Assembly: GCA_049860595.1 (NCBI GenBank)
Contig: CP187551.1
Origin: Methanocaldococcus sp. 16A
GTDB taxonomy: Archaea; AGJL01; Methanococci; Methanococcales; Methanocaldococcaceae
DNA: 64,000 bases
Strand: one strand, 5' to 3'
In this document: piece by piece, positions 9,301-44,687 of the stretch
How positions within the stretch are numbered: position 1 is the stretch's first letter
How the letters are laid out: each line of letters opens with the position of its first letter
The notes under the pieces: generated by a model
The model's input: only the letters and a program-made list of their open reading frames with translations
Told to the model about the DNA's origin: nothing
Databases searched by the model: none
Position numbers and translations under genes: made by a program

Positions 9301-10632
9301 ATGGCTATGAAGGTTTTTAGGGGTATAACTTGTCCTGTCTGTGGAATGGCGTGTGACGATATAGAAGTCTGGTATGATGAAGAAAAGCAGGAAATAATTG
9401 TAAAAAATGTTTGTAGAGAGGGAGCTCCAAAGTTTAAAGAGATTGTTAGTCCACATAGAATAAGAGAACCAATGATTAAAAAGAATGGAAAGTTCGTTAA
9501 AGTTAGTTGGGAAGAGGCAATAAATAAAGCTGCAGAAATTTTAGCTAATGCTAAGAGACCTCTCCTCTTTATGGGAGCTGAAACGTCAGCTGAAGCACAT
9601 ATAGTCGGAATGCACATGGCTGAATACTTAGGGGGAGTTGTTGATTCAAACTCAACAATATGACACGGTCCTACTTTAATGGGGGTTCAAGAGGCTGGAC
9701 TTCCTGGCTGTACTGCTGGTGAAGTAAAAAATAGAGCTGATTTAATCATATTCTGGGGCTGTAATCCAATGCACTCCCACCCAAGACATATGAGTAGATA
9801 TTCAGTATTTGCAAGAGGGTTCTTTAGAGAAAGAGGCAGAAAAGATAGAAAAATAGTTGTTGTCGACCCAAGAAAAACAGATACTGCAAAGTTAGCAGAT
9901 TTACATGTTCAGTTAAAGCCTAACACAGACTATGAGATGTTCTCTGCTCTCCTAACAATATTAAGGGGCAAAAAGCCACATCACAGCGTTGAGAAGATAA
10001 CTGGAGTACCAATTGAAGTTATGGAAGAGATGATTGAATGGATGAAAAATGCTAAATTCGTAAAAATTTATGGTGGTTTAGGATTACCAGCATCAAGAGG
10101 GGGGCATAGAAATATAGAATGTGTCTTAACTTTAGTTAAAGAGTTAAATAAATATACAAAATGTTCCATTGGAGCTTTAAGAGGACACTGTAATGTTAAT
10201 GGATTCAACCAAGTTGCCTCATATATGTATGGTTATCCTTATGGAATAGACTTTGCAAGAGGTTATCCAAGATACAATCCTGGAGAATTTACATTTGCAG
10301 ACCTATTGAGAGAAAGAGAAATTGACGCTGTGTTAGTAGTAGCCGCTGGTATCGTTGAGCATACACCAAAAGACTGTGCAAAGTATTTGAATGAGATTCC
10401 GATGGTTTGTATAGATATAGCTCCCGGACCTACACCTTATGCTTCAGATGTTGTATTGCCTGGAGTTATTGATGGAATGGAATGTGGAGCAACATTCTAT
10501 AGGTTTGACGGATTAACTTTGTATGCAAAGCCTTTCACAACCTCACCATTTCCATTTACTAAGAGTAATGAAGACACTTTAAGACAAATATTTGAAAAGG
10601 TTAAAGAAATCAAAGAAGGTAAGAAAAAATAA
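9301..10632 (+). CDS. fmdB: Formylmethanofuran dehydrogenase subunit B, selenocysteine-containing (443 aa, Sec121)
   Basis: ORFs 9292-9663 and 9679-10632 share a frame and are joined by TGA 9661-9663 in DSNSTI-U-HGP; CPVCGMACDD [4Fe-4S] motif; SECIS 53 nt after the stop. Confidence 0.92.
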
Positions 10633-10685
10633 TAAGAAAAATAAAAATTCAGCCAGGAAGTCCAGCCCACCAAAAAATGTTTGTG

Positions 10686-10721
10686 ATGATACGCCGAACC
10701 CGTTAAAGGGAGGCGTATCAT
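10686..10721 (+). promoter_or_regulatory. Archaeal SECIS element in the fmdB 3' UTR
   Basis: ATGATACGCC-GAA-CCC-GTTAAA-GGG-A-GGCGTATCAT: 10-bp stem, GAA/A internal loop, three G-C pairs, apical loop. Confidence 0.92.
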
Positions 10722-10815
10722 AGCTCTTATTATTTTTATTTTTTTACAACATTTAGTAACTAATTTTGATTGATTTATTGAATAAAAATTAATTTAATAT
10801 AATTACGGTGATACT

Positions 10816-17720: not shown

Positions 17721-17811
17721 TAGGACTTTCGCAGGACTAAATATCACTATGAAAGTTTATGCTCTTTGAGCATATAAATTCTAATAGTATATATAAAATG
17801 CGAAAGTCCTA
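17721..17811. repeat. Palindromic MJRE-like repeat, family 1 (intact copy)
   Basis: Perfect 13-bp TIRs TAGGACTTTCGCA / TGCGAAAGTCCTA with central hairpin ATGCTC-TTT-GAGCAT. Confidence 0.85.
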
Positions 17812-17827
17812 ATTATTTAAGTTTTAT

Positions 17828-35672: not shown

Positions 35673-36221
35673 TTAGATAGCTTTTCCAGCTTTCTCTACA
35701 ATGTAAATTCCATCTTGGAAGACTCTTGGGTCTCTTCCTTTAATTCTTGTTGCCTGCTCTATGTTAGCAGCAGTTTGTCCTACCTTTTCTTTATCAATTC
35801 CTGTAACTATAACGTCCTCTCCACTAATCTTAACGGTAACTCCTTCCATAATTCTTGCTCTTCTTGGGTGTTTCTCCCCTAAGAAGTTTTCAATGATAAC
35901 CTCATTACCTTTAACACTAACTTTCATTGGGAAGTGTGCATATCTAATCTTTAATTTGTATGTAAATCCTTCAGTAACTCCTTTAATCATGTTGTTTATA
36001 TGAGCCCTTATAGTTCCAACCATTGCTTTATCTTTTCTTCTTGGATATTCGCAAGATATAACAACTTCATCTCCTTCCTTCTTAATTACAATTTTTGGAT
36101 GCTCAAATTTCCTCCTTAACTCTTTTCCTCCACTTTTTACAACAACTTCATTGTTGTTTATCTCAACTTGAACATTTTCAGGGATTTTTACCCTTTCCTC
36201 AATATAGGCGGCAACTGGCAT
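35673..36221 (-). CDS. rpl6: 50S ribosomal protein uL6
   Basis: YAHFP, NFLGEK and [12 protein letters not shown] motifs. Confidence 0.96.
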
Positions 36222-36259
36222 AAACTCACCTCAAAATTTAAATTTAATTTAGAACGTGT

Positions 36260-36652
36260 TTAATAGACATAAGCTAATAATCTTCCTCCTAATCCTCTCT
36301 TCTTAGCTTCTTCGTGGCTCATAACTCCCTGTGTAGTTGAAACAATTAATATACCAAAATCTCTTGCTGGTAAGTATCTTTTTTCAAACTTTTCATATCC
36401 AAATTTTTTGACAGGGAATCTTGGTTTTATAGCTCCACACTTGTTTATCTTCCCTATTAATTCAACTTTAAATATTCCTGCTCTACCGTCCTCTATAAAT
36501 TCAAATTCTCCTATATAGCCATTATCTTGCATAACTTTTAAAACCCTTCCAATCAATTTAGACGCTGGTTTTATATAAACTACTTTTTTACCCACTCTTT
36601 CACAGTTAGAGATATGGTTTAATGCATTTGCTAGTGGGTCCATTAAACTCAT
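36260..36652 (-). CDS. rps8: 30S ribosomal protein uS8
   Basis: DPLANAL and [11 protein letters not shown]....GGRL motifs. Confidence 0.96.
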
Positions 36653-36698
36653 GTTTTCCCTCCATTAAGAATTTTTAATTTTGGCTGAGTGTTTTGGT

Positions 36699-36860
36699 TT
36701 AATCTAATTTCTTAAATCCTAATTTGTGAGCAATTTCTCTAAAACACTGTCTGCAGAGGTTTAATCCATACTTTCTAATTAAACCTGGACCTACATGTCC
36801 ACATCTTTGACATGGCCTAATTCCATAACCATACTTCTTTTTCCATGGTTTTTTTGCCAT
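36699..36860 (-). CDS. rps14: 30S ribosomal protein uS14, zinc-binding type (53 aa; below ORF-track cutoff)
   Basis: Manual translation [53 protein letters not shown]; lies between rpl5 and rps8. Confidence 0.95.
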
Positions 36861-36873
36861 CCACATCACCTTT

Positions 36874-37446
36874 TTATTGTGTTTCTTCTTCCTCTTCTAA
36901 CAATACTCTCTCAACTTTAATTCCGAAGGTTTTTTCTATAAATTCAATTGCTTCTTCTCTTGTTAATCTATGTCTTCTTGGAATTTTAGCTCTACATCTC
37001 TTTCTTCTTTTAACTCTAAATCCAGGTCTTTCTAAGGTAACACAAACGTCCATACCATAAACTCCAATCATTGGGTCGTATTTTTGCCCTGGAAAATCTA
37101 TATGTTCATGAATACCAAATGAGAAGTTTCCATAATCGTCAAATGAATAATCATACAATTTTTTACCTTCTTTTTGGAATGCTTCAAATGCATTCTTTAA
37201 AAATTCCTCCGCTTTCTTTCCTCTTAATGTAACCTTTAACCCAATAGGTAACTTCTTTCTAATTCCAAATGATGGGTTTGTTTGCTTAGCTCTTGTTCTT
37301 ATTGGTTTTTGCCCTGTTAATTCTTCCATAACTTGAGCTCCTTTTGTTAATCTATCTCCACTCTCTCCTACCCCAAAATTAACAACAACTTTTTCAATTC
37401 TTGGTTTCAACATTGGATTCTTTTGCCATAATTCTTCAAAGCTCAT
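36874..37446 (-). CDS. rpl5: 50S ribosomal protein uL5
   Basis: [18 protein letters not shown] and GNFSFGI.EHI motifs. Confidence 0.96.
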
Positions 37447-37477
37447 GTTTCTCCCTCATTTGTATATTATAAAGAGT

Positions 37478-38212
37478 TTATAATTTAATGATTGGTTCTT
37501 CATCTCCTACAACGAAGACATAATCCTTAACTGTTTTAAATTTATCTCCTTCTAAGTTCTCTAATGTAACTATATCTGGATAAATTCCTCTTTTCTCTAT
37601 TTCTACAATTCTTGCAAAGTCACCAACGTGTTTTCCTCCTGTAATATAAGCTAATTTACCTACTTCAAATGGAATGTGTGCTTTAATTTCTTGTTCAGGA
37701 ATTGAGATTAATAAAGTATCTCCTGTTTTATAAACATCTTCTTCAGCTTTTGTTGGGTCTGAAACTTTTATAACAATATTTCTTCCATCATGTAAGTTTA
37801 ATTGAATATGCCCTCCTTTAACAACTGTCTTATTTTTAATTTTACATAATTTAACATCTGGATTTTCTGTTGGTTTTAATTTAACTCTTCCTTTTCTATC
37901 AAAGAGAACTCTGTAATTTTCGTTTGCATCAGGTAATGAGACAACATCCATTAATCCAACAGGTAACTTTTCTTCTTTTCTAACTCTTCCATCAACTAAA
38001 ACTTTACCCATCTTAATGATTTTTTTAGCTTCTCTTGCGTTATCAGCATATTTTAAAACATCCCTAATAACTAACAATAATGGTATTGACTCACTCATTG
38101 GGTGTGCTCCTGGTAATGGCCTAACTGTAAATTTGTGAACCTTTCTTGGCAACTCCCATCTAACTGGAGCCGCTAATCTTTTTAAATGTCTTTTTGGACC
38201 TTTTTTTGCCAT
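37478..38212 (-). CDS. rps4e: 30S ribosomal protein eS4
   Basis: HLKRLAAP, PGAH and QLNLHDGRN motifs. Confidence 0.96.
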   Translation of the reverse strand: MAKKGPKRHLKRLAAPVRWELPRKVHKFTVRPLPGAHPMSESIPLLLVIRDVLKYADNAREAKKIIKMGKVLVDGRVRKEEKLPVGLMDVVSLPDANENYRVLFDRKGRVKLKPTENPDVKLCKIKNKTVVKGGHIQLNLHDGRNIVIKVSDPTKAEEDVYKTGDTLLISIPEQEIKAHIPFEVGKLAYITGGKHVGDFARIVEIEKRGIYPDIVTLENLEGDKFKTVKDYVFVVGDEEPIIKL

Positions 38213-38225
38213 CCTTTCACCTTAT

Positions 38226-38594
38226 TTACTTTTTAATGTGTTTGAATCTTCTTTCATCTTTGTCATACAACTTAATAATCATGACATTTGATGGGTGTAT
38301 TGGATAAGGAACTTCTCTTCCATCTTGTCTTTTGTTGTTTGCTCCTTCAACATATATTCTGTATCTCTTTAAATCAACTTTAATTACTTCTCCTTCCAAT
38401 CCTTTAAAGTCTCCTCTCATTATTCTAACAACATCTCCCTTTCTAACAGGGATAGCATTTCTTCCCAATTTTTCCTTCAACTCTTTTGATAACATTGCAG
38501 ACATAACTTTCCTTCTTAAGTGGAGAGGAGCATTAAATAATGCTTTTCTCTGTTTTCTTGGCTGTTTTGACTTTGTAAAAGCCATATTTTTCAC
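38226..38594 (-). CDS. rpl24: 50S ribosomal protein uL24
   Basis: [19 protein letters not shown] and IHPSNV motifs. Confidence 0.96.
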
Positions 38595-38617
38595 CTTTAA
38601 GATTTGTTTAAATTGAT

Positions 38618-39016
38618 TTATACAATTATCTTAGCGATTCTTGCAATACCTGGCCATCTTTCAGCTGCTTCTTTTGCTACAGGACCTTTAATATCTGAAC
38701 CCTTTGGGTTTCCATCCGGTGTTACTATAACAACTGCATTATCTGCAAACTTAACTCTTGTTCCATCAGGCCTTCTAATTTCTTTTCTCTGTCTAATAAC
38801 AACTGCTGGCAAAACCTGTTTTCTCATCTCTGGTGTACCTTTTTTAACTGTAACTACAACCATATCTCCTACTCTTGCTGTTGGTAATCTTCTTGCAACC
38901 CCTTTGTAGTTTTTCACAGCTATGATTTCAACTTCTTTAGCTCCAGTGTTGTCAGCACAAATGCATCTTGCTCCAACAGGTAATCCTCTCACAGGTTTTG
39001 AACCAATTGCTTTCAT
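38618..39016 (-). CDS. rpl14: 50S ribosomal protein uL14
   Basis: [15 protein letters not shown] and GPVAKE motifs. Confidence 0.96.
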
Positions 39017-39048
39017 ATTTTTTCACCTTTTAGATTTATGAATCAAAT

Positions 39049-39402
39049 TTATTCTTCTCCTTTAATTTCTTTAATATTTCCTAATTTTTCAATGACAACG
39101 AATGCTTTTGTTTTACTTATAGGTCTACATTCCATAACTCTTACAATATCTCCAACTTTTGCGTTTATGCATGGTGGATTGTGTGCTGCTAATTTTGACG
39201 TTCTTCTTTCATATCTTTCATATTTTTTGATATATTTTACAATTTCTCTCTTAATAATGACTGTTTTTTGTGGTTTATCGCTAACTACAACTCCAACAAA
39301 GCTCTGCCCTCTTACTGGCAAAGTTCCGTGAAATGGACAATTTTTATCATCACATTCTACTTCTGGAGCTTTAACTGGAATTCCAATATTTCTTGCTACC
39401 AT
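39049..39402 (-). CDS. rps17: 30S ribosomal protein uS17
   Basis: [13 protein letters not shown] and ECRPISKTK motifs. Confidence 0.96.
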
Positions 39403-39469
39403 GTTTTTACCTCCTATTTGCAGGTTTTTAAGTTTATTTTATTGAATTTTAGAGCTAAAGATGATTAAA

Positions 39470-39638
39470 TAGGACAAAAATATTATTCATGCATCCAGAC
39501 CGTTAAACTGTCTGAATGCACTTTAATATCTATTAAGGAAGTTTTAAAGCTAAAGCTTCAATCTAATTTAATAAAAATATATTATTTTTGCATTCAAACA
39601 GTTACACTTTAATTGATATATAATGTGCGAAAGTCATA
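39470..39638. repeat. Nested repeats: family-3 element (39506-39603) plus a truncated copy, inside a degenerate family-1 shell
   Basis: TIRs AACTGTCTGAATGCA / TGCATTCAAACAGTT; an extra right end TGCATCCAGACCGTT at 39490; outer TAGGAC (39470) and TGCGAAAGTCATA (39626-39638). Confidence 0.65.
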
Positions 39639-39661
39639 TATAGAAACCTATATATTACTTT

Positions 39662-39674
39662 AACGGTTGGGGCA
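39662..39674 (-). promoter_or_regulatory. Downstream arm of a 13-bp long-range inverted repeat, complementary to the rnp1 ribosome-binding region
   Basis: AACGGTTGGGGCA (39662-39674) is the exact reverse complement of TGCCCCAACCGTT (40025-40037). Confidence 0.7.
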
Positions 39675-39734
39675 AAAATAAGCGTTATTATAGTAACATC
39701 TCTTTTTCTACAAAACACTTTTGAAAACTTACTG

Positions 39735-40022
39735 CTAATATGGATAAAGTATCTTTATCTTTTTCTTTAATCTCTCTTCTGGTCTCCCTATCAGCAATCT
39801 TCCATCAACTTTCACTTTACATTCATTTAATTCAAATAAGAATACTGCAATATCCTTTGGAATAGTCACTTCTTTGCCATTCTCTTTTTCTATCACTAAG
39901 GTATTTCTTGTTTCATCCACTACTCTCCCTTTAATCCCTATCATCGCTTTGTTCTTTGCATCAACAATCTCTACTCTAAGCCCTATAAGTTCATGCCTAA
40001 GTATGTTGTATGGAGTTATCAT
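39735..40022 (-). CDS. rnp1: RNase P protein component 1 (Rpp29/Pop4)
   Basis: HELIGL.V.I, GI.G.VVDETRNTL and GRPEER motifs. Confidence 0.95.
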   Translation of the reverse strand: MITPYNILRHELIGLRVEIVDAKNKAMIGIKGRVVDETRNTLVIEKENGKEVTIPKDIAVFLFELNECKVKVDGRLLIGRPEERLKKKIKILYPY

Positions 40023-40024
40023 GA

Positions 40025-40082
40025 TGCCCCAACCGTTTTACGGGAACGGGGTGTGCCCTTTCAGGGCATCCGCGTCCCCTCT
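40025..40082 (-). promoter_or_regulatory. GC-rich structured RNA element in the rnp1 5' leader
   Basis: GGGGACG/CGUUCCC outer stem enclosing a UGCCC-UGAAA-GGGCA hairpin; strongly GC-rich against AT-rich spacers. Confidence 0.65.
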
Positions 40083-40132
40083 ATTTCATTTAATCCAAAA
40101 TAAAATTAAATTAAAAAGTTAAAAGTTAAAAT

Positions 40133-40444
40133 TTATCTAATTTCAATTGAATCTCTTGAGAAACCCATTTTAACGAGTTCTTCAGCAACTTTTTTTCTGT
40201 GGTCTCCCTGAAGTTCAATAGAATCTCCTTTAACAGTCCCTCCACAAGCACAAATATCTTTTAATTTCTTAGCAAGCTCTTTTAAGTCTATAACACTTGT
40301 ATCAAAACCTTCAATTATGGTCATTAATTTACCAAATCTTCTTTTTGTAACGTATATTTTTATTTTTTGTTCCTCTTTAGCTATTTCTTCACAAACACAT
40401 AATTCTTTTGGTAATCCACATCTTGGACAAATTTCTGGCATCAC
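40133..40444 (-). CDS. Translation initiation factor SUI1 / aIF1 homolog
   Basis: CP.CGLP.ELC.C, RRFGK, ACGGTVK and LQGDH motifs. Confidence 0.93.
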
Positions 40445-40549
40445 TGCACCTCTGTATTTTATATGCCATCTAAGTAATTGAGTATAGTAAATAATATTTA
40501 GATAAGGTATTTAAATTTTTCCTTGGATGTTTGGTTTAATTTTTGTTAA

Positions 40550-40762
40550 TTATTGTGAAGCCATTCTTTTCTTTTCATTCATTATTGTTAATATTCTTGC
40601 TATTGTTCTTCTAATTTCTCTCATTCTACCTGGATTTGAAGGAGCTCCAGCAACAGCTTTACTTGCTCTCTCTTTTAACAATTCTCTTTTCAATTCTACG
40701 AGTTTTTCTTTTAATTCTTCTATTGACATTTCCCTTAACTCATTAGCTCTTAATATAGCCAT
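40550..40762 (-). CDS. rpl29: 50S ribosomal protein uL29
   Basis: ELREMS and NPGR.REIRR.IARILT motifs. Confidence 0.95.
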
Positions 40763-40774
40763 GTTTATTCACCT

Positions 40775-41401
40775 TTATTGTTCTTCTTCAACTACATGCT
40801 TAACTTCCATATCCTCTTTAATTATAATTTCATCTGGTAATAAGACATCTGGTCTCATGATTTTTACTGTAACTCCTATAACCCCTGGCTTTGTTTTTGC
40901 TATTGCTCTTCCTTTATCAACAAGTTCTTCAGCTGGCTCTCCACAGTGTTTCATGTATCCAGCCATGAACTTCTCTGTTCTTGCTCTCTCTCCAGTTAAT
41001 TTACCTGAGATAATAACTATAACCCCTTTAGCTCCAGCGTTCATAACTCTCCTTACAGCTGTATGCCCAACTCTTCTAAAGTGTAACCCTCTCTCTAATG
41101 ACTGAGCTACTTTTTGAGCAACAACTTGAGCATCTAAATCAGGATTTTCAACAGGTTTAACATCAATTTGTGGTTTTTCAACACCAAACTCCTTAGCTAA
41201 TTTCTCTGTTAATTCTCTAATTCTAGTACCTCTTCTACCAATAACAAAACCAGGTTTCTCAGCATAGATGATAATTTTTGTTCCTATAGGTGTTTTTCTT
41301 ATATCGCAGTGGCTGTATCCCGCTCTACTTAACTCTTTCTTAAAGTACTCATCAATTAACAATCTCTTAACATTTTCTTTAACAAATGTTCTCTCAATCA
41401 T
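40775..41401 (-). CDS. rps3: 30S ribosomal protein uS3
   Basis: PG.VIGR.G..IREL KH motif; GAKG....SGK. Confidence 0.96.
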
Positions 41402-41427
41402 CTATTCCACCTTTATATCTTATTTTT

Positions 41428-41898
41428 TTAGTGGTATTCTTCTAAGATAACTTGTATATGAACTGTTTCTTGGAATTTAGGTGTAGCTCTACCAAATGCT
41501 CTTGGCATGTATCTTTTGATTGTTATTCCCTTGTTTGTTGAGATATGTTTTATTCTCAATTTTTCTACATTTAAACCTTTGTATTCAGCATTTGCCTTTG
41601 CATAGTTTAATATCTTTAAGATTGCCTTAGCTGCTTTAACTGGGTATCTACCAGCAGGCCATCCTAATTTACCTTTTCTGTGCCCTACTTTCTTGCAGTG
41701 TCTTCTAAAGAGAACAGGTCTTCTCATTGCAATAACATCTTCTAAGAACCTTATAGCATCATCCAATTTCATTCCATTTATTGATTTACATATCTCTCTT
41801 GCATGTTTTCTTGATATTGGAATATTTCTTCCCATAGCCCTTGCTGTTTTTTCAGGATTGACTTGTATCTTATATTTTAATTTAGCCATCAATATCAC
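41428..41898 (-). CDS. rpl22: 50S ribosomal protein uL22
   Basis: GRYPVKAA, NAEYKGL and PRAFGRA motifs. Confidence 0.96.
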   Translation of the reverse strand: MILMAKLKYKIQVNPEKTARAMGRNIPISRKHAREICKSINGMKLDDAIRFLEDVIAMRRPVLFRRHCKKVGHRKGKLGWPAGRYPVKAAKAILKILNYAKANAEYKGLNVEKLRIKHISTNKGITIKRYMPRAFGRATPKFQETVHIQVILEEYH

Positions 41899-42209
41899 CC
41901 TTAAGCTTACTTAACTGTAAGAAGTTTATATTACTTTTATTAGTGCTCAACCATAACAACCCAGAATGCCATAAAATAATAAATATCAAATTGTGAGCAT
42001 CCTGGGATTTTTCTATTTTCTATATTTGTTATCATTTTCATTTGCCTGTTTATGCTATTTAAACTTATGAATATCTCATCAACGGCAGTTAGAGATTTTA
42101 GAATGTAAGAATATAAAATTTTTAAAGTGTTATATATAATTTACGAATAAATAGGAAACAATAAAACAAAAACAATTTTCAGCCCAATATTCAAAAAAAG
42201 TATTAAAAT

Positions 42210-42479
42210 TTATGCCAATGAAACTTCTACTGTTTCAACGCTCTCAACATCGTCAATCTCTGCTAAAGCATTTTCTATTGGCTCTGTTCCTCCTTCTCTT
42301 TCCTCCATTTCAATAACGGTGTATATAGCGTATAAACCAAAAGCTAATGGCTCATCAAATAATCCCCTTATAGCAACATCTTGTTTTTCTAATACCTCTT
42401 TAATCTTCTCTTTTAACTCTTCTTTATTAACTTCTGGACTTGTAGGCATAATTTTTATTTTTGCTAATACAGCTGCCAT
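42210..42479 (-). CDS. ef1b: Elongation factor 1-beta
   Basis: KIMP.SPEV and EPLAFGL motifs. Confidence 0.93.
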   Translation of the reverse strand: MAAVLAKIKIMPTSPEVNKEELKEKIKEVLEKQDVAIRGLFDEPLAFGLYAIYTVIEMEEREGGTEPIENALAEIDDVESVETVEVSLA

Positions 42480-42509
42480 TTTCTCACCACATATTATTGA
42501 AATTTAGAT

Positions 42510-42674
42510 TTATGGGCCTTCAAACCCACATTTTGGACATTTGTATGGGTTGTTTAATTTTCTGCATCTCTCACATCTTACAATCTCTACTTCTCCACAG
42601 TTTGGACATGGGAATTTTGTTGATTTCTCTCTTGGTGCAATCTCAGCATTACAGCTTATGCAAATGTATTTCAT
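42510..42674 (-). CDS. Small zinc-finger protein (DUF1610 / HVO_2753-like), 54 aa
   Basis: CISC, FPCPNCG, RCERCR and [11 protein letters not shown]; conserved upstream of ef1b; the longer ORF-track N-terminus comes from repeat DNA. Confidence 0.88.
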
Positions 42675-42697
42675 CTTTCCCACCCAATAATTTTTAT

Positions 42698-42761
42698 ATG
42701 AAACTTTTAGTAAAAGTTTCATCAAAACGGATGCATTGCTTCCTAAAGGAAGCAATGCCTC
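42698..42761. repeat. Two REP-like palindromes shared with the tRNA-Val-adjacent element
   Basis: ATGAAACTTTT-AGT-AAAAGTTTCAT; 32-bp GATGCATTGCTTCCTAAAGGAAGCAATGCCTC, the exact reverse complement of 51766-51797. Confidence 0.85.
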
Positions 42762-42778
42762 TTAAGTACATATCAGGT

Positions 42779-43429
42779 TTATAATTTACCTATTCCGATA
42801 ATTTTTGTATATATGTTGTGTTTTCCTTCTAAAATATCTATAACTCTCTCTGGATATTTGCCATTAACAACGTAAGCGTTCATTTTAAATTGTTTTAAAA
42901 GAATTGGAAAGGTCTCATCTACAGATGTTAAACCTTTAATGTCATTTGCATTAATAATATTTAATAGTTTCCCTTCTGGGAATTTGTCATATATACCATC
43001 AACATTTGTAGCTATTATAACTTCCCTAACATCTAATAACTTTCCTATATATAAACTTAATGAATCTGATGTTATAGCCCAAGAATGCTCAGCCATATCA
43101 GTAGATAGCAAAATTTTTGAAGGTAATATAACAGCAATTTTTTCTTTTTCTATCTCTCTTTTTAAATCAAATAGTGTATCGTAAGCTTTTATATTCCCAA
43201 TTTCAGCATAAACCTCTCCAACCAAATCCATACATTTTATAGCAAGCTTATGGGATAAAGAGTTAGAAATTTTTAGATTTTTATCTATCTTTCTAACGAT
43301 ATTTGCAAACTCTCCTCCTCCAGGAATAACAACTACCTTCTTATCATTTTCTTTTGCATAGTTTTTCAATGCTTTTAATAATGGCTCTGCATCATAAGTT
43401 AAAGAACCACCAATTTTTATTATATGCAT
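42779..43429 (-). CDS. mfnE: [5-(aminomethyl)furan-3-yl]methyl phosphate kinase (amino acid kinase family, methanofuran pathway)
   Basis: KIGGSL, PGGGEFAN..R, HSW.ITSDS and T.VDG motifs. Confidence 0.8.
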   Translation of the reverse strand: MHIIKIGGSLTYDAEPLLKALKNYAKENDKKVVVIPGGGEFANIVRKIDKNLKISNSLSHKLAIKCMDLVGEVYAEIGNIKAYDTLFDLKREIEKEKIAVILPSKILLSTDMAEHSWAITSDSLSLYIGKLLDVREVIIATNVDGIYDKFPEGKLLNIINANDIKGLTSVDETFPILLKQFKMNAYVVNGKYPERVIDILEGKHNIYTKIIGIGKL

Positions 43430-43445
43430 TTAACTTCACCAACAA

Positions 43446-44687
43446 TTATTTCAAAATCTCGTAAAACACTTTAGCCATCTTAATCAAATCCTCTATTTTA
43501 ATGTGCTCATTTGGTTGGTGAGCAGTTTCTTCTCCAATCCCCCAAACAGCTACTTTATAACCCTTATATCTCAAAAATGCCGCAACAGTTCCTCCACCCA
43601 TTCCGCAAAGCTTCGCCTCTCTATTTAAAACATTCTTTATAGCTTTTTTCAATTCATTAATAATCTCTGCATTTTCATCTGTATAGTTTGGATTCTCTGC
43701 TTTTAATATTTCATACTCTATTGTTGCCTCTATTGAGTTATCATAATACTTAAGATATTTTTTAAAGTCAAAGTTTTTAATAAAATCTTCTATAAACTCT
43801 AAAACTTCATCCATTTTATAATTTGGCAGAATTCTGCAGTCAAAAACAACTTCAACATATCCTGGAATTGTATTAGGATTCTCAACTTTATTTTTTAATA
43901 TCGTTGGTTCAAAGGTTGAATACTCTGGCAAAAATATTGGATTAATTTTGTTAAATGTTTTGTATAAATTGTTGTATAACTCATTTGCAAAGTTAAAAGC
44001 AACTATATCAGCATTTAACCCATTTTCAGGTGTGCTACCATGACACTGCTTTCCTCTAATCTTAAATTTTATCCATAAAATGCCCTTCTCTCCAATCTCT
44101 ACAAATTCTCCAGTTGGTGTTCCAAAATCTGGAACTATAATTAAATCATCTTTTTTAAATATCTCATCCTCAAAGTTATCCAATAGATATTTTAAGCCAT
44201 ATTCACTTCCATCCTCTTCATCAGAGACAAAAACTAATGATAAATTGTATTTTGGCTTAATATTATTTTCAAAAATCATTTTTAATAATAGTAGAGAAGA
44301 AACTATTCCTTTATGGTTGTCCTCTGCTCCTCTTCCATAAATTTTTCCATCTTTAATAACTGGTTCATAAGGATTTGTATCCCACAAACTAATATCTCCT
44401 TCTGGAACAGTATCTAAATGAGAAATAATATGTAATGTCTTATCTCTATTGAAATCTATTTTAAAAACTATATTTGGTCTTTCAATACTGTATTTGTCAA
44501 TTACATTGTATTCTTTTAGAGTATAATTTTTTATATTATATTTTTTAACATATTCCATTAATTTGTTTTTAACATATTCTGCTTTTTCTTTCTCTCCATT
44601 TCCTCCAAATGAAGGATTAACTGAATTGATTTTTATTAAATCACTCTCTAACTTTATGGCTTCTTCTTTTAATTTCATAAACATCAT
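43446..44687 (-). CDS. M20 family metallo-hydrolase (DapE/ArgE-like)
   Basis: SHLDTVP.G, YGRG.EDN, DEE, G.Q.HGS and AHQPNEH motifs. Confidence 0.88.
   Translation of the reverse strand: MMFMKLKEEAIKLESDLIKINSVNPSFGGNGEKEKAEYVKNKLMEYVKKYNIKNYTLKEYNVIDKYSIERPNIVFKIDFNRDKTLHIISHLDTVPEGDISLWDTNPYEPVIKDGKIYGRGAEDNHKGIVSSLLLLKMIFENNIKPKYNLSLVFVSDEEDGSEYGLKYLLDNFEDEIFKKDDLIIVPDFGTPTGEFVEIGEKGILWIKFKIRGKQCHGSTPENGLNADIVAFNFANELYNNLYKTFNKINPIFLPEYSTFEPTILKNKVENPNTIPGYVEVVFDCRILPNYKMDEVLEFIEDFIKNFDFKKYLKYYDNSIEATIEYEILKAENPNYTDENAEIINELKKAIKNVLNREAKLCGMGGGTVAAFLRYKGYKVAVWGIGEETAHQPNEHIKIEDLIKMAKVFYEILK

What the first reader, a model, noticed from the sequence alone, without database searches (positions are those of the whole stretch)
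39662..40037. 13-bp long-range helix that loops out the whole RNase P rnp1 cistron and masks its ribosome-binding site
Seen: on the mRNA (minus) strand, AACGGUUGGGGCA occupies positions -15 to -3 before the rnp1 AUG, and its perfect complement UGCCCCAACCGUU lies 60 nt after the rnp1 stop. The 350-nt loop holds the entire CDS. Both arms are GC-rich in otherwise very AT-rich spacers, so chance is unlikely. Established: rnp1 sits among ribosomal protein genes although RNase P is needed at far lower copy number, and long-distance pairing that gates initiation is known from phage MS2. Inference: a co-transcriptional timer that allows initiation only until the downstream arm is made, or a processing stem that excises the cistron. 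I know of no description of this in archaea. Caveat: the downstream arm abuts a BRE/TATA-like sequence (AACCGTTAAAGTAATATATA) that may be an rps17 promoter, but that does not explain the GGGGCA complementarity.
Basis: partly seen in the sequence, partly recalled or inferred. Interest (0 to 1): 0.85.

Follow-up and report, generated by a model that had tools for sequence, protein, structure and literature searches.

The report
Conserved mRNA helix enclosing rnp1 gene
The messenger RNA for a small RNase P protein in these methane-making archaea appears to fold back on itself, so that sequence just behind the gene pairs with and covers the ribosome landing site in front of it. This looks like a built-in way to keep the protein scarce.

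Summary
AACGGTTGGGGCA (window 40037..40025, minus strand, -15..-3 of the rnp1 ATG) is perfectly complementary to TGCCCCAACCGTT (39674..39662, 60 nt after the stop). The 13-mer occurs only at these two places in the 1.62-Mb genome.

It is not chance. Of those 34, 29 have both arms and 4 (one clade) lack both and have an ordinary Shine-Dalgarno. In the remaining one the contig ends, so its 3' side is unknown.

The arms covary (CA/TG in one family, AC/GT in the other; ACGG/CCGT versus TCGG/CCGA). The helix is longer in lineages with higher 16S G+C. Whole-transcript folds contain it in 13 of 13 representatives.

The 3' arm always follows a U4-6 tract and precedes the rps17 promoter. In the window its outer half doubles as the promoter's BRE.

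Best reading (about 0.5): a 5'UTR-3'UTR helix that occludes the rnp1 initiation region, so only nascent or U-tract-terminated transcripts are translated.

Weak points:
- In the second family the helix is only 5-6 bp, and swap and accessibility tests do not support masking there.
- No usable transcript-end data were available.
- The hairpin's partner is unknown.
- There is no bulge-helix-bulge, so excision is unlikely.

I file it as a new variant of a known kind.

The parts
40133..40444 (-). SUI1/aIF1 gene, upstream neighbour
   Evidence: ORF. Pfam SUI1, E 2.3e-24.
40042..40079 (-). Conserved 5'-UTR hairpin. It has a lower stem of about 10 bp, an invariant core (GGAT.C on the 5' strand, ACACCC on the 3' strand, forming a small asymmetric internal loop), an upper stem of 3-8 bp and a variable apical loop.
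   Evidence: RNAalifold consensus: 9 of 13 pairs have changes on both sides. Covariance model R1 finds one copy per genome, always upstream of rnp1, in 34 of 40 genomes; the next best hits are E 0.004 or worse. No Rfam match.
40025..40037 (-). 5' arm AACGGTTGGGGCA, at -15..-3 of the ATG. It covers the G-run that is the only Shine-Dalgarno-like sequence.
39735..40022 (-). rnp1 (Rpp29/Pop4) coding sequence, 95 codons, wholly inside the loop.
   Evidence: Pfam PF01868, E 2.5e-27.
39674..39680 (-). U-tract (TATTTTT on the mRNA strand) directly 5' of, and overlapping by one base, the 3' arm. A run of three T is invariant and a fourth is present in at least 90% of the 29 arm-bearing sequences.
   Evidence: Alignment A3 invariant columns. 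That uridine tracts mark archaeal termination sites comes from PMC7515710 (passages read).
39662..39674 (-). 3' arm TGCCCCAACCGTT, starting 60 nt after the stop.
39647..39668 (-). BRE/TATA-like sequence (AACCGTTAAAGTAATATATAGG), the presumed rps17 promoter, overlapping the outer 7 nt of the 3' arm.
   Evidence: By eye against the archaeal promoter layout described in PMC2699501 (passages read). It is directly adjacent in 8 of 12 arm-bearing g1 loci and 55-100 nt further on in L003, L005, L013 and L014, where the arm is still kept.
39049..39402 (-). rps17 gene, the next gene downstream.
   Evidence: ORF. Named by eye from its translation; not run against Pfam.

Best explanation
The rnp1 mRNA of Methanococcales carries a two-part cis-acting RNA element. 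Part one is a sequence-conserved hairpin in the 5' UTR. Part two is a long-range helix in which the G-rich initiation region (-15..-3) pairs with a C-rich segment of the 3' UTR that lies just behind a U-tract and ahead of the rps17 promoter.

When the helix is closed, the weak Shine-Dalgarno-like G-run is buried and 30S subunits cannot load. Rpp29 would then be made only from RNA that lacks the 3' arm. That means nascent chains before RNA polymerase has copied the arm, or transcripts that terminate at the U-tract. Transcripts that read through towards rps17 stay silent for rnp1. This would uncouple a low-copy RNase P subunit from the heavy expression of its ribosomal-protein neighbours.

Shown: the helix, its conservation and covariation, its position, and its predicted stability. 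Inferred: that it lowers translation, and which transcripts escape it.
For: - The repeat is perfect at 13 bp and unique in the genome.
- It is in both the minimum-energy and the centroid fold, z -5.0.
- Distribution: 29 of 34 hairpin-bearing genomes have both arms and 4 of 34 have neither. Those 4 have ordinary Shine-Dalgarno sequences such as GTGAT or GAGGA instead. In 1 the contig ends. No genome with both flanks readable has only one arm.
- Covariation: at position +1 there are C-G pairs in 7 arm haplotypes and A-T in 12. At +2 there are A-T in 5 and C-G in 12. L013/L014 have TCGG/CCGA where the window has ACGG/CCGT. L003/L005 shift the register by one but keep 13 bp. L008/L010 extend to 15 bp.
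- The count of structure pairs on A3: 70.3% of cells paired against 57.6% in shuffles, and covariation score 0.260 against 0.133. In both cases 0 of 500 shuffles reach the observed value, and the correct register beats all six slid registers.
- G-U pairs occur only in the sense-strand reading (L002, L013/L014).
- The distance from the stop to the arm varies from 10 to 119 nt, yet complementarity is kept.
- Helix length tracks 16S G+C: 13-15 bp at 0.646, 8 bp at 0.635, 6 bp at 0.59, 5-6 bp at 0.575.
- The core pair is in the minimum-energy fold of all 13 representatives at assumed growth temperatures.
- In g1 and g3 the 3' arm lowers the mean unpaired probability of -14..+3 from 0.62-0.80 to 0.26-0.45.
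- In 21 of 21 genomes of another archaeal class, rnp1 is packed against its neighbours with no hairpin and no helix. The element therefore came with the spacer, U-tract and promoter that split the operon here.
Against: - There are no transcript data for this organism. The only RNA evidence is metatranscriptome contigs from relatives, one of which (930 nt) bridges rnp1, the arm and rps17. That does not prove a single transcript.
- If most transcripts end at the U-tract, the 3' arm is rarely present.
- In g2, g4 and g5 the helix is only 5-6 bp. Cognate duplex energies (-11.5 to -14.5 kcal/mol) are no better than non-cognate ones, and 1 to 101 of 500 shuffles reach them. The 3' arm does not change predicted accessibility there, although the nearest-neighbour model cannot represent the loop-to-tail pseudoknot.
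- Genus g3 has mismatches at +1 and +2.
- The major covariation is essentially one event on the tree, and kin are not independent.
- In the window the outer half of the 3' arm is also a BRE-like promoter sequence, so it is under a second constraint.
- The conserved core of the hairpin is left unexplained.
Confidence: 0.5

Rival explanations
1. End-clamp or processing stem. The helix ties the 5' and 3' ends of a monocistronic rnp1 RNA together to protect it from exonucleases, or to mark the sites where it is cut out of longer ribosomal-protein transcripts. The effect on translation would be secondary.
For: The helix brackets exactly one cistron, and a stable GC-rich hairpin sits at or near the 5' end. 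The layout resembles the flanking repeats of rRNA precursors (recalled).
Against: There is no bulge-helix-bulge: the helix is perfect and its flanks do not pair. In several f2 loci a canonical TATA lies 45-130 nt upstream of the hairpin, so the hairpin is not the 5' end there. No joint or circular junction on the helix appeared in the contigs laid, although contigs cannot show ends. The 5' arm lies precisely on the ribosome-binding site, which a mere clamp does not need.
Confidence: 0.15
2. Protein-operated switch. The invariant hairpin core is an operator for a protein, for example free Rpp29, Rpp21-Rpp29, or another RNA-binding protein. The long-range helix is the expression platform that this binding stabilises or opens. 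This would be autogenous control of an RNase P subunit.
For: The core (GGAT.C and ACACCC) is invariant across the order while stems and loop vary and covary. The hairpin is single-copy and exclusive to rnp1. It is kept in the 4 genomes that lost the arms, so it has a function of its own.
Against: No resemblance to the organism's own RNase P RNA or rRNA was found. The model finds no second copy, and motif searches gave only scattered half-sites. There are no tandem G-A pairs, so it is not a K-turn. No binding data exist.
Confidence: 0.13
3. Termination control. Pairing of the nascent 3' arm with the 5' arm, next to the U-tract, changes how well the U-tract or aCPSF1 terminates transcription. 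This would set how much transcription runs from rnp1 into the rps17 promoter region.
For: A U4-6 tract is invariant directly 5' of the 3' arm. Uridine tracts plus aCPSF1 cleavage downstream of them define termination in Methanococcus maripaludis (PMC7515710, passages read). Internal operon terminators tune ribosomal-protein operons (PMC10450193, abstract and passages read).
Against: The arm is made only after the U-tract has left the hybrid, the reverse of a bacterial terminator. The terminator scan found 0. rps17 has its own promoter, so read-through is not needed. This reading does not explain why the partner is the ribosome-binding site.
Confidence: 0.1
4. DNA-level feature. The two arms are inverted binding sites for a DNA-binding protein, or the 3' arm is simply the rps17 BRE and the match to the 5' arm is incidental.
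For: AACCGTTAAAG followed by a TATA-like run is present without the GCCCC part in L011 and L019. Two sites recognised by one protein would also covary.
Against: The arm is retained where the TATA box has moved 55-100 nt away (L003, L005, L013, L014). G-U pairs make the two DNA sites unequal. Helix length scales with 16S G+C. In f2 the 5' arm sits in the loop of a small RNA hairpin. The 5' arm position is fixed relative to the ATG.
Confidence: 0.07
5. A chance inverted repeat with no function.
For: A handful of other 13-bp G/C-containing repeats exist in the genome.
Against: Conservation, co-occurrence of the arms, covariation and register controls. Only 2 of 3449 ORFs have such a start-to-tail helix.
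Confidence: 0.03

Closest known systems
Long-distance RNA pairing that gates initiation in ssRNA phages: the MS2 replicase 'Min Jou' interaction, and the MS2 maturation gene whose Shine-Dalgarno pairs with a distant segment so that only nascent RNA is translated (recalled, not read here).
   Same: A ribosome-binding site is buried by a segment hundreds of nucleotides away. For the maturation gene, translation is confined to RNA that has not yet reached its final fold.
   Different: Here the partner lies downstream of the whole cistron, in untranslated RNA. It cannot be opened by ribosomes translating another cistron. The delay would be set by transcription of the gene itself or by termination at a U-tract. 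The host is an archaeon and the gene is cellular.
Functional interplay of 5' and 3' UTRs in haloarchaeal translational control (Brenneis and Soppa 2009, PMC2636863, abstract read).
   Same: It is an archaeal mRNA, and both UTRs are implicated together in translation.
   Different: That work showed a genetic requirement for both UTRs with reporters and did not show a base-paired duplex. Here a covarying duplex is shown by sequence but no function has been measured.
Processing stems flanking archaeal rRNAs, with bulge-helix-bulge sites for the splicing endonuclease (PMC7714728, search listing and start of abstract only).
   Same: Inverted repeats bracket one functional RNA unit.
   Different: There are no bulges and no 4-bp central helix. 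The bracketed unit is a coding sequence, and one arm is its ribosome-binding site.
Internal operon terminators that set unequal expression inside ribosomal-protein operons of Methanococcus maripaludis (PMC10450193, abstract and passages read).
   Same: It addresses the same problem, a low-copy gene among ribosomal-protein genes. A U-tract sits in the spacer.
   Different: Those act on transcription alone. Here the U-tract is coupled to an arm complementary to the upstream ribosome-binding site.

Membership tests
Long-range ribosome-binding-site masking helix (MS2 type) | The initiation region is complementary to a distant segment of the same RNA. | tested here: met
   13 bp perfect, at -15..-3. 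Present in both the minimum-energy and centroid folds.
Long-range ribosome-binding-site masking helix (MS2 type) | The pairing is maintained in evolution by compensatory change. | tested here: met
   Few independent events. Weak in g2, g4 and g5.
Long-range ribosome-binding-site masking helix (MS2 type) | The distant arm lies in a translated region, so that ribosomes open the helix (replicase type). | tested here: not met
   The 3' arm lies 10-119 nt after the stop, in untranslated RNA.
Long-range ribosome-binding-site masking helix (MS2 type) | Closing the helix lowers translation. | not testable with these tools
   Only predicted accessibility is available: 0.29 against 0.69 in L001, with no effect in f2.
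Bulge-helix-bulge processing stem or circular RNA precursor | Two 3-nt bulges on opposite strands, separated by 4 bp. | tested here: not met
   The helix is uninterrupted and the flanking bases do not pair.
Bulge-helix-bulge processing stem or circular RNA precursor | Cleavage or circular junction reads at the stem. | tested here: inconclusive
   Only contigs of relatives could be laid. No such joint is listed, but contigs cannot show ends.
Bacterial-type intrinsic terminator | A G+C-rich hairpin followed directly by a T-run. | tested here: not met
   0 found. The T-run precedes the 3' arm.
K-turn (L7Ae site) | A 3-nt bulge followed by tandem sheared G-A pairs. | tested here: not met
   The hairpin core has GG paired with CC next to the loop. 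There is no GA on the bulged strand (alignments; the K-turn definition is recalled).
Archaeal SECIS | A GAA/A internal loop above a G+C-rich stem, and an in-frame TGA in the gene. | tested here: not met
   The loop is A opposite CA or CAC. The rnp1 ORF has no internal stop. The SECIS definition is recalled.
Ribosomal-protein-type autogenous operator (mimic of an rRNA or RNase P RNA site) | The same motif is present in the cognate stable RNA. | tested here: inconclusive
   Model R1 finds no second copy in any of 40 genomes. The own RNase P RNA and rRNA show only isolated half-sites. A purely three-dimensional mimic cannot be excluded.
Any Rfam 15 family or tRNA-like element | A match to a curated model. 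| tested here: not met
   No hit overlapping 39600-40100 at E up to 5. ARAGORN found 0.

The most novel reading that the evidence does not exclude
The rnp1 messenger is a self-closing, single-burst mRNA. Ribosomes can load only while RNA polymerase is still copying the roughly 300-nt gene. Synthesis of the 3' arm then shuts the ribosome-binding site for good, so each transcript yields a fixed, small number of Rpp29 molecules whatever its lifetime. The conserved hairpin would be the handle by which a protein, possibly RNase P components, tunes closure.

The selenoprotein mRNAs of the same genomes carry 10-26-bp helices joining the coding region just behind the UGA to the 3' UTR next to the SECIS. 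These are missing in exactly the same four genomes that lack the rnp1 arms. Taken together, this would mean Methanococcales make systematic use of kilobase-range intramolecular mRNA helices, perhaps with a lineage-specific helper.
Probability: 0.2. Interest if true: 0.85.

Novelty: new variant of a known kind. Interest (0 to 1): 0.62.

Why it matters
Covariation-supported pairing between the 5' and 3' UTRs of an archaeal mRNA has, as far as my searches reach, not been described. No such description turned up, and there is no Rfam match.

It gives a concrete, mutable model for three open points:
- how archaea set very different protein outputs for neighbouring genes in ribosomal-protein clusters;
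- whether 3' UTRs control archaeal translation by direct pairing;
- how RNase P protein levels are kept in step with the RNA subunit.

Genetic systems exist for Methanococcus maripaludis and Methanocaldococcus jannaschii (PMC6616113, listing only). Arm-swap and compensatory-mutation tests are therefore feasible.

The 5' hairpin is a new orphan RNA motif with a strictly conserved core that should have a specific partner.

Tried and rejected
- Rfam scan of 36000-44000 at E up to 5: nothing on the element.
- tRNA/tmRNA scan: 0. I considered a tRNA-like minihelix as an RNase P substrate and dropped it. The stem is 15-16 bp with an internal loop, and its length varies.
- Bacterial promoter and terminator scan: not informative for archaea, 0 terminators.
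- Bulge-helix-bulge, K-turn and SECIS readings of the hairpin or helix: rejected by inspection.
- Mimicry of rRNA or RNase P RNA: GGATGCC and CACACC half-sites occur in 5S, 16S and 23S rRNA but not as a paired motif. The similarity of the 3' strand to the 16S 1390s region is only my impression and is not claimed.
- A regulon of hairpins: none. There is one copy per genome. The 19.8-bit hits in G005 and G016 are a repeat.
- Pairing of the U-tract with the start codon: seen by eye in g2 and g5 but present in the minimum-energy fold of only 2-3 of 13 representatives. Not claimed.
- Swap test (cognate against non-cognate arms): clear for g1. It does not favour the cognate pair in g3, g2, g4 or g5.
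- RNA runs: no run of this strain was found. X7 and X9 laid nothing. X1 and X2 gave contigs of relatives only, and the parts without cover (39423-39627) mean nothing.
- Literature: no text on rnp1/Rpp29 mRNA structure or regulation was found. The Term-seq and transcription-start tables of PMC7515710, PMC10450193 and PMC2699501 are in supplements.
- Genus names are coded (g1-g5). Linking them to named genera or growth temperatures is my inference from 16S G+C only.
Full report
WHAT IS THERE. On the minus strand the window carries SUI1/aIF1 (40133-40444), rnp1 (39735-40022), a 332-nt spacer, then rps17 and further ribosomal-protein genes. Pfam confirms SUI1 and RNase_P-MRP_p29. The other genes I named by eye.

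AACGGTTGGGGCA lies at 40037..40025 (-15..-3 of the ATG). TGCCCCAACCGTT lies at 39674..39662, 60 nt after the stop. The match is 13 of 13, with 350 nt between the arms.

The 13-mer occurs nowhere else in the 1.62-Mb, 30% G+C genome. The window has 2 exact copies plus one 2-mismatch hit, against 0.34 expected at up to 2 mismatches.

Genome-wide there are only 90 maximal perfect G/C-containing inverted repeats of at least 11 bp at 60-1500 nt spacing, and most belong to one repeat family. When I asked for complementarity between -26..+3 of a start and the 160 nt after the stop, only 2 of 3449 ORFs reached 13 bp: rnp1 and a selenoprotein gene. Folding 431 nt of the sense strand puts the helix in both the minimum-energy and the centroid structure (z -5.01, 0 of 100 shuffles as stable).

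A SECOND, UNREPORTED PART. Directly upstream (40079..40042) lies a G+C-rich hairpin. In relatives its stems and apical loop change while a core (GGAT.C on the 5' strand, ACACCC on the 3' strand, forming a small asymmetric internal loop) is invariant. RNAalifold finds 13 pairs, 9 of them with changes on both sides.

A covariance model of the hairpin finds exactly one strong copy per genome (E 2e-7 or better), always in front of rnp1, in 34 of the 40 Methanococcales genomes held. The next best hits are E 0.004 or worse. It matches no Rfam family and no tRNA-like gene. I could not find its motif paired in the organism's rRNAs or RNase P RNA. Its partner is unknown.

COMPARATIVE EVIDENCE FOR THE LONG-RANGE HELIX. 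All 40 genomes of the order have rnp1. I read the flanks of all 40.
- Six genomes, one clade of genus g2, have neither hairpin nor arms. There the SUI1 stop abuts or overlaps the rnp1 start.
- Of the 34 with the hairpin, 29 have both arms.
- Four (L011, L018, L019, L021) have neither arm and instead carry ordinary Shine-Dalgarno sequences.
- In one (L022) the contig ends inside the gene, so only the 5' arm can be seen.

No genome with both flanks readable has only one arm. On a tree of rnp1+S17+L14, the four arm-less genomes form one clade and the six element-less genomes form another. These are therefore two events, and hairpin plus arms is the likely ancestral state of the order.

The 3' arm sits 10 to 119 nt after the stop, yet stays complementary. 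In the window's genus the helix is 12-15 bp in 12 of 12 arm-bearing genomes with readable 3' flanks, with several informative changes:
- one compensatory pair change (ACGG/CCGT to TCGG/CCGA in L013/L014);
- one U-G pair (L002);
- a one-base register shift that keeps 13 bp (L003/L005);
- a two-pair extension (L008/L010).

Genus g3 has 8 bp (TGGTGGGG/CCCCACCA). Genera g2 and g5 have GGGGAC/GTCCCC. Genus g4 and L034 have GGGAC or GGGACA against GTCCC or TGTCCC.

Next to the invariant G:C run, position +1 is C-G in 7 haplotypes and A-T in 12. Position +2 is A-T in 5 and C-G in 12.

On the MAFFT alignment of the whole region, the count tool gives 70.3% paired cells against 57.6% in shuffles, and a covariation score of 0.260 against 0.133. 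In both cases 0 of 500 shuffles reach the observed value, and the true register beats all six slid registers. The tool's own warning applies: related sequences can beat shuffles without structure, and the main covariation is essentially one split on the tree.

RESULTS THAT WEAKEN THE CASE.
- In g2, g4 and g5 the helix is short. Cognate 5' and 3' regions pair no better than non-cognate ones (-11.5 to -14.5 kcal/mol against non-clade means of -12 to -14), and 1 to 101 of 500 shuffled tails do as well.
- Genus g3 is mismatched at +1 and +2.
- Removing or shuffling the 3' tail raises the predicted unpaired probability of -14..+3 in g1 and g3 (0.26-0.45 with the arm, 0.62-0.80 without). It has no consistent effect in g2, g4 and g5.
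- In those genera the 5' arm sits in the loop of a 4-bp mini-hairpin directly before the ATG. The long-range contact would then be a pseudoknot, which the energy model cannot score.
- Even so, the core G:C pair is in the minimum-energy fold of all 13 representatives at assumed growth temperatures, with probabilities of 0.51 to 1.00.

RNA OR DNA? Several points favour a sense-strand RNA helix:
- G-U pairs appear in the sense reading.
- The 5' arm has a fixed position relative to the ATG.
- In f2 the 5' arm is presented in a hairpin loop.
- Helix length falls as 16S G+C falls: 0.646 with 13-15 bp, 0.635 with 8 bp, 0.59 with 6 bp, 0.575 with 5-6 bp (five genera, not independent).

The outer 7 nt of the 3' arm in the window are also a BRE-like sequence followed by a TATA-like run, and that promoter sequence persists in L011 and L019 without the GCCCC part. 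But in L003, L005, L013 and L014 the TATA-like box lies 55-100 nt further on and the arm is still kept.

CONTEXT. An invariant U4-6 tract lies immediately 5' of the 3' arm in all 29 sequences. In Methanococcus maripaludis, uridine tracts mark transcript 3' ends and aCPSF1 cleaves downstream of them (PMC7515710, passages read). Internal operon terminators there tune ribosomal-protein operons (PMC10450193, abstract and passages read; rnp1 is not mentioned in the main text).

The 3' arm therefore sits between a likely terminator and the next promoter. In 21 of 21 genomes of another archaeal class, rnp1 is packed against its neighbours. None has the hairpin (0 of 21 at E up to 5), and the best start-to-tail complement is 4-8 bp. 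The element is therefore a Methanococcales innovation that came with the splitting of the operon at rnp1/rps17.

MECHANISM. A 13-bp G+C-rich helix over -15..-3 should exclude the 30S subunit. The G-run is the only Shine-Dalgarno-like sequence there, and it is lost together with the 3' arm in the four genomes that have a normal Shine-Dalgarno.

I therefore rate translational occlusion as the most likely function (about 0.5). Two escape routes cannot be told apart here:
- translation only of transcripts that end at the U-tract, while read-through RNA is silent.

Rivals are listed with their odds: an end-clamp or processing stem, a protein-operated switch using the hairpin, termination control, a DNA-level site, and chance. 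Excision by the splicing endonuclease is unlikely because no bulge-helix-bulge is present.

RNA DATA. No run of this strain was found. Two metatranscriptome runs gave contigs of relatives. One 930-nt contig bridges rnp1, the arm region and rps17, and another extends through a variant 3' arm. This shows that such RNA, or contaminating DNA, exists, and nothing more.

COMPARISON WITH WHAT IS KNOWN. In function the closest cases are the long-distance pairings that gate initiation in MS2-type phages (recalled). The closest in archaea is the genetic requirement for both UTRs in haloarchaeal translational control (PMC2636863, abstract read). The present case differs in two ways: the partner lies behind the whole cistron in untranslated RNA, and it is supported by covariation rather than by reporters. 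I found no description of it (Rfam). The supplements of the transcriptome papers were closed and may contain relevant end positions.

SIDE FINDING. The only other 13-bp start-to-tail hit led to two selenocysteine-type FwdB/FmdB-like genes.
- In the window, an in-frame TGA at 9661-9663 is followed 30 nt later by an 18-nt stretch (9693-9710). That stretch is perfectly complementary to 10650-10667 in the 3' UTR, just before a SECIS-like hairpin (10683-10722).
- The paralogue at G000:C1:1336716-1337737 has nested 19-bp and 13-bp helices of the same layout.
- The paralogue without an in-frame TGA has none.
- Among 20 relatives' loci with the TGA and full flanks, 16 have such a helix of 10-26 bp. 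The 4 without it are the same four genomes that lack the rnp1 arms.
- Passages of PMC9622424 say that the archaeal SECIS works over 88-679 nt without strict distance limits, and they do not mention such pairing.

This is outside the assigned finding. It does show that long-range mRNA helices are used more than once in these genomes.

VERDICT. I file it as a new variant of a known kind, with interest 0.62.

Noticed in passing
window 9661-9663, 9693-9710, 10650-10667, 10683-10722 (+ strand): A FwdB/FmdB-like molybdopterin-oxidoreductase gene has an in-frame TGA, likely selenocysteine. An 18-nt coding stretch 30 nt after the TGA is perfectly complementary to the 3' UTR, 17 nt after the stop and just 5' of a SECIS-like hairpin. 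The pairing would bring the SECIS to within a few tens of nucleotides of the UGA.
   Followed up: partly
L055 (G000:C1:1336500-1337900): 191-193, 217-235 with 1220-1238, 300-312 with 1191-1203: A second Sec-type paralogue, outside the window, has nested perfect 19-bp and 13-bp helices of the same layout, followed by a SECIS-like hairpin. The paralogue without an in-frame TGA (G000:C1:233407-234222) has none. Of 20 relatives' loci with the TGA and full flanks, 16 have a 10-26-bp helix. Passages of PMC9622424 do not mention such pairing.
   Followed up: partly
L068, L069, L074, L076 (G002, G013, G009, G003) and L011, L018, L019, L021: The four genomes that lack the selenoprotein long-range helix are the same four that lack the rnp1 arms, and they form one clade. 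This may be a lineage-wide loss of long-range mRNA helices. It is unexplained.
   Followed up: no
window 17721-17812 (+), and more than 30 other places in the genome: A palindromic repeat family of about 90 nt, with ends AGGACTTTCGCAG and CTGCGAAAGTCCT about 64 nt apart. It looks like a miniature mobile element.
   Followed up: no
window 39403-39734 (- strand), the rnp1-rps17 spacer: The unusually long 332-nt spacer, apparently a roughly 250-nt rps17 leader, holds a 15-bp helix (39506-39520 with 39589-39603, 93% complementary) and a 34-nt direct repeat (39476-39509 and 39575-39608). It is shared with the closest relative L002 but not with L004 and others.
   Followed up: partly
L039, L040, L041 (genus g4), alignment A3 columns 205-281 and 337-348: Three genomes carry in-frame insertions of about 70 nt plus 12 nt in the rnp1 coding sequence (open frames of 132-139 codons) and a long, repeat-rich 3' spacer. 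They still keep the hairpin and arms.
   Followed up: no
run X2, loose end at window 39736: A metatranscriptome contig of an unsampled relative carries a 3' arm variant that begins CGCCCC instead of TGCCCC or AGCCCC. Its 5' arm could not be seen.
   Followed up: no
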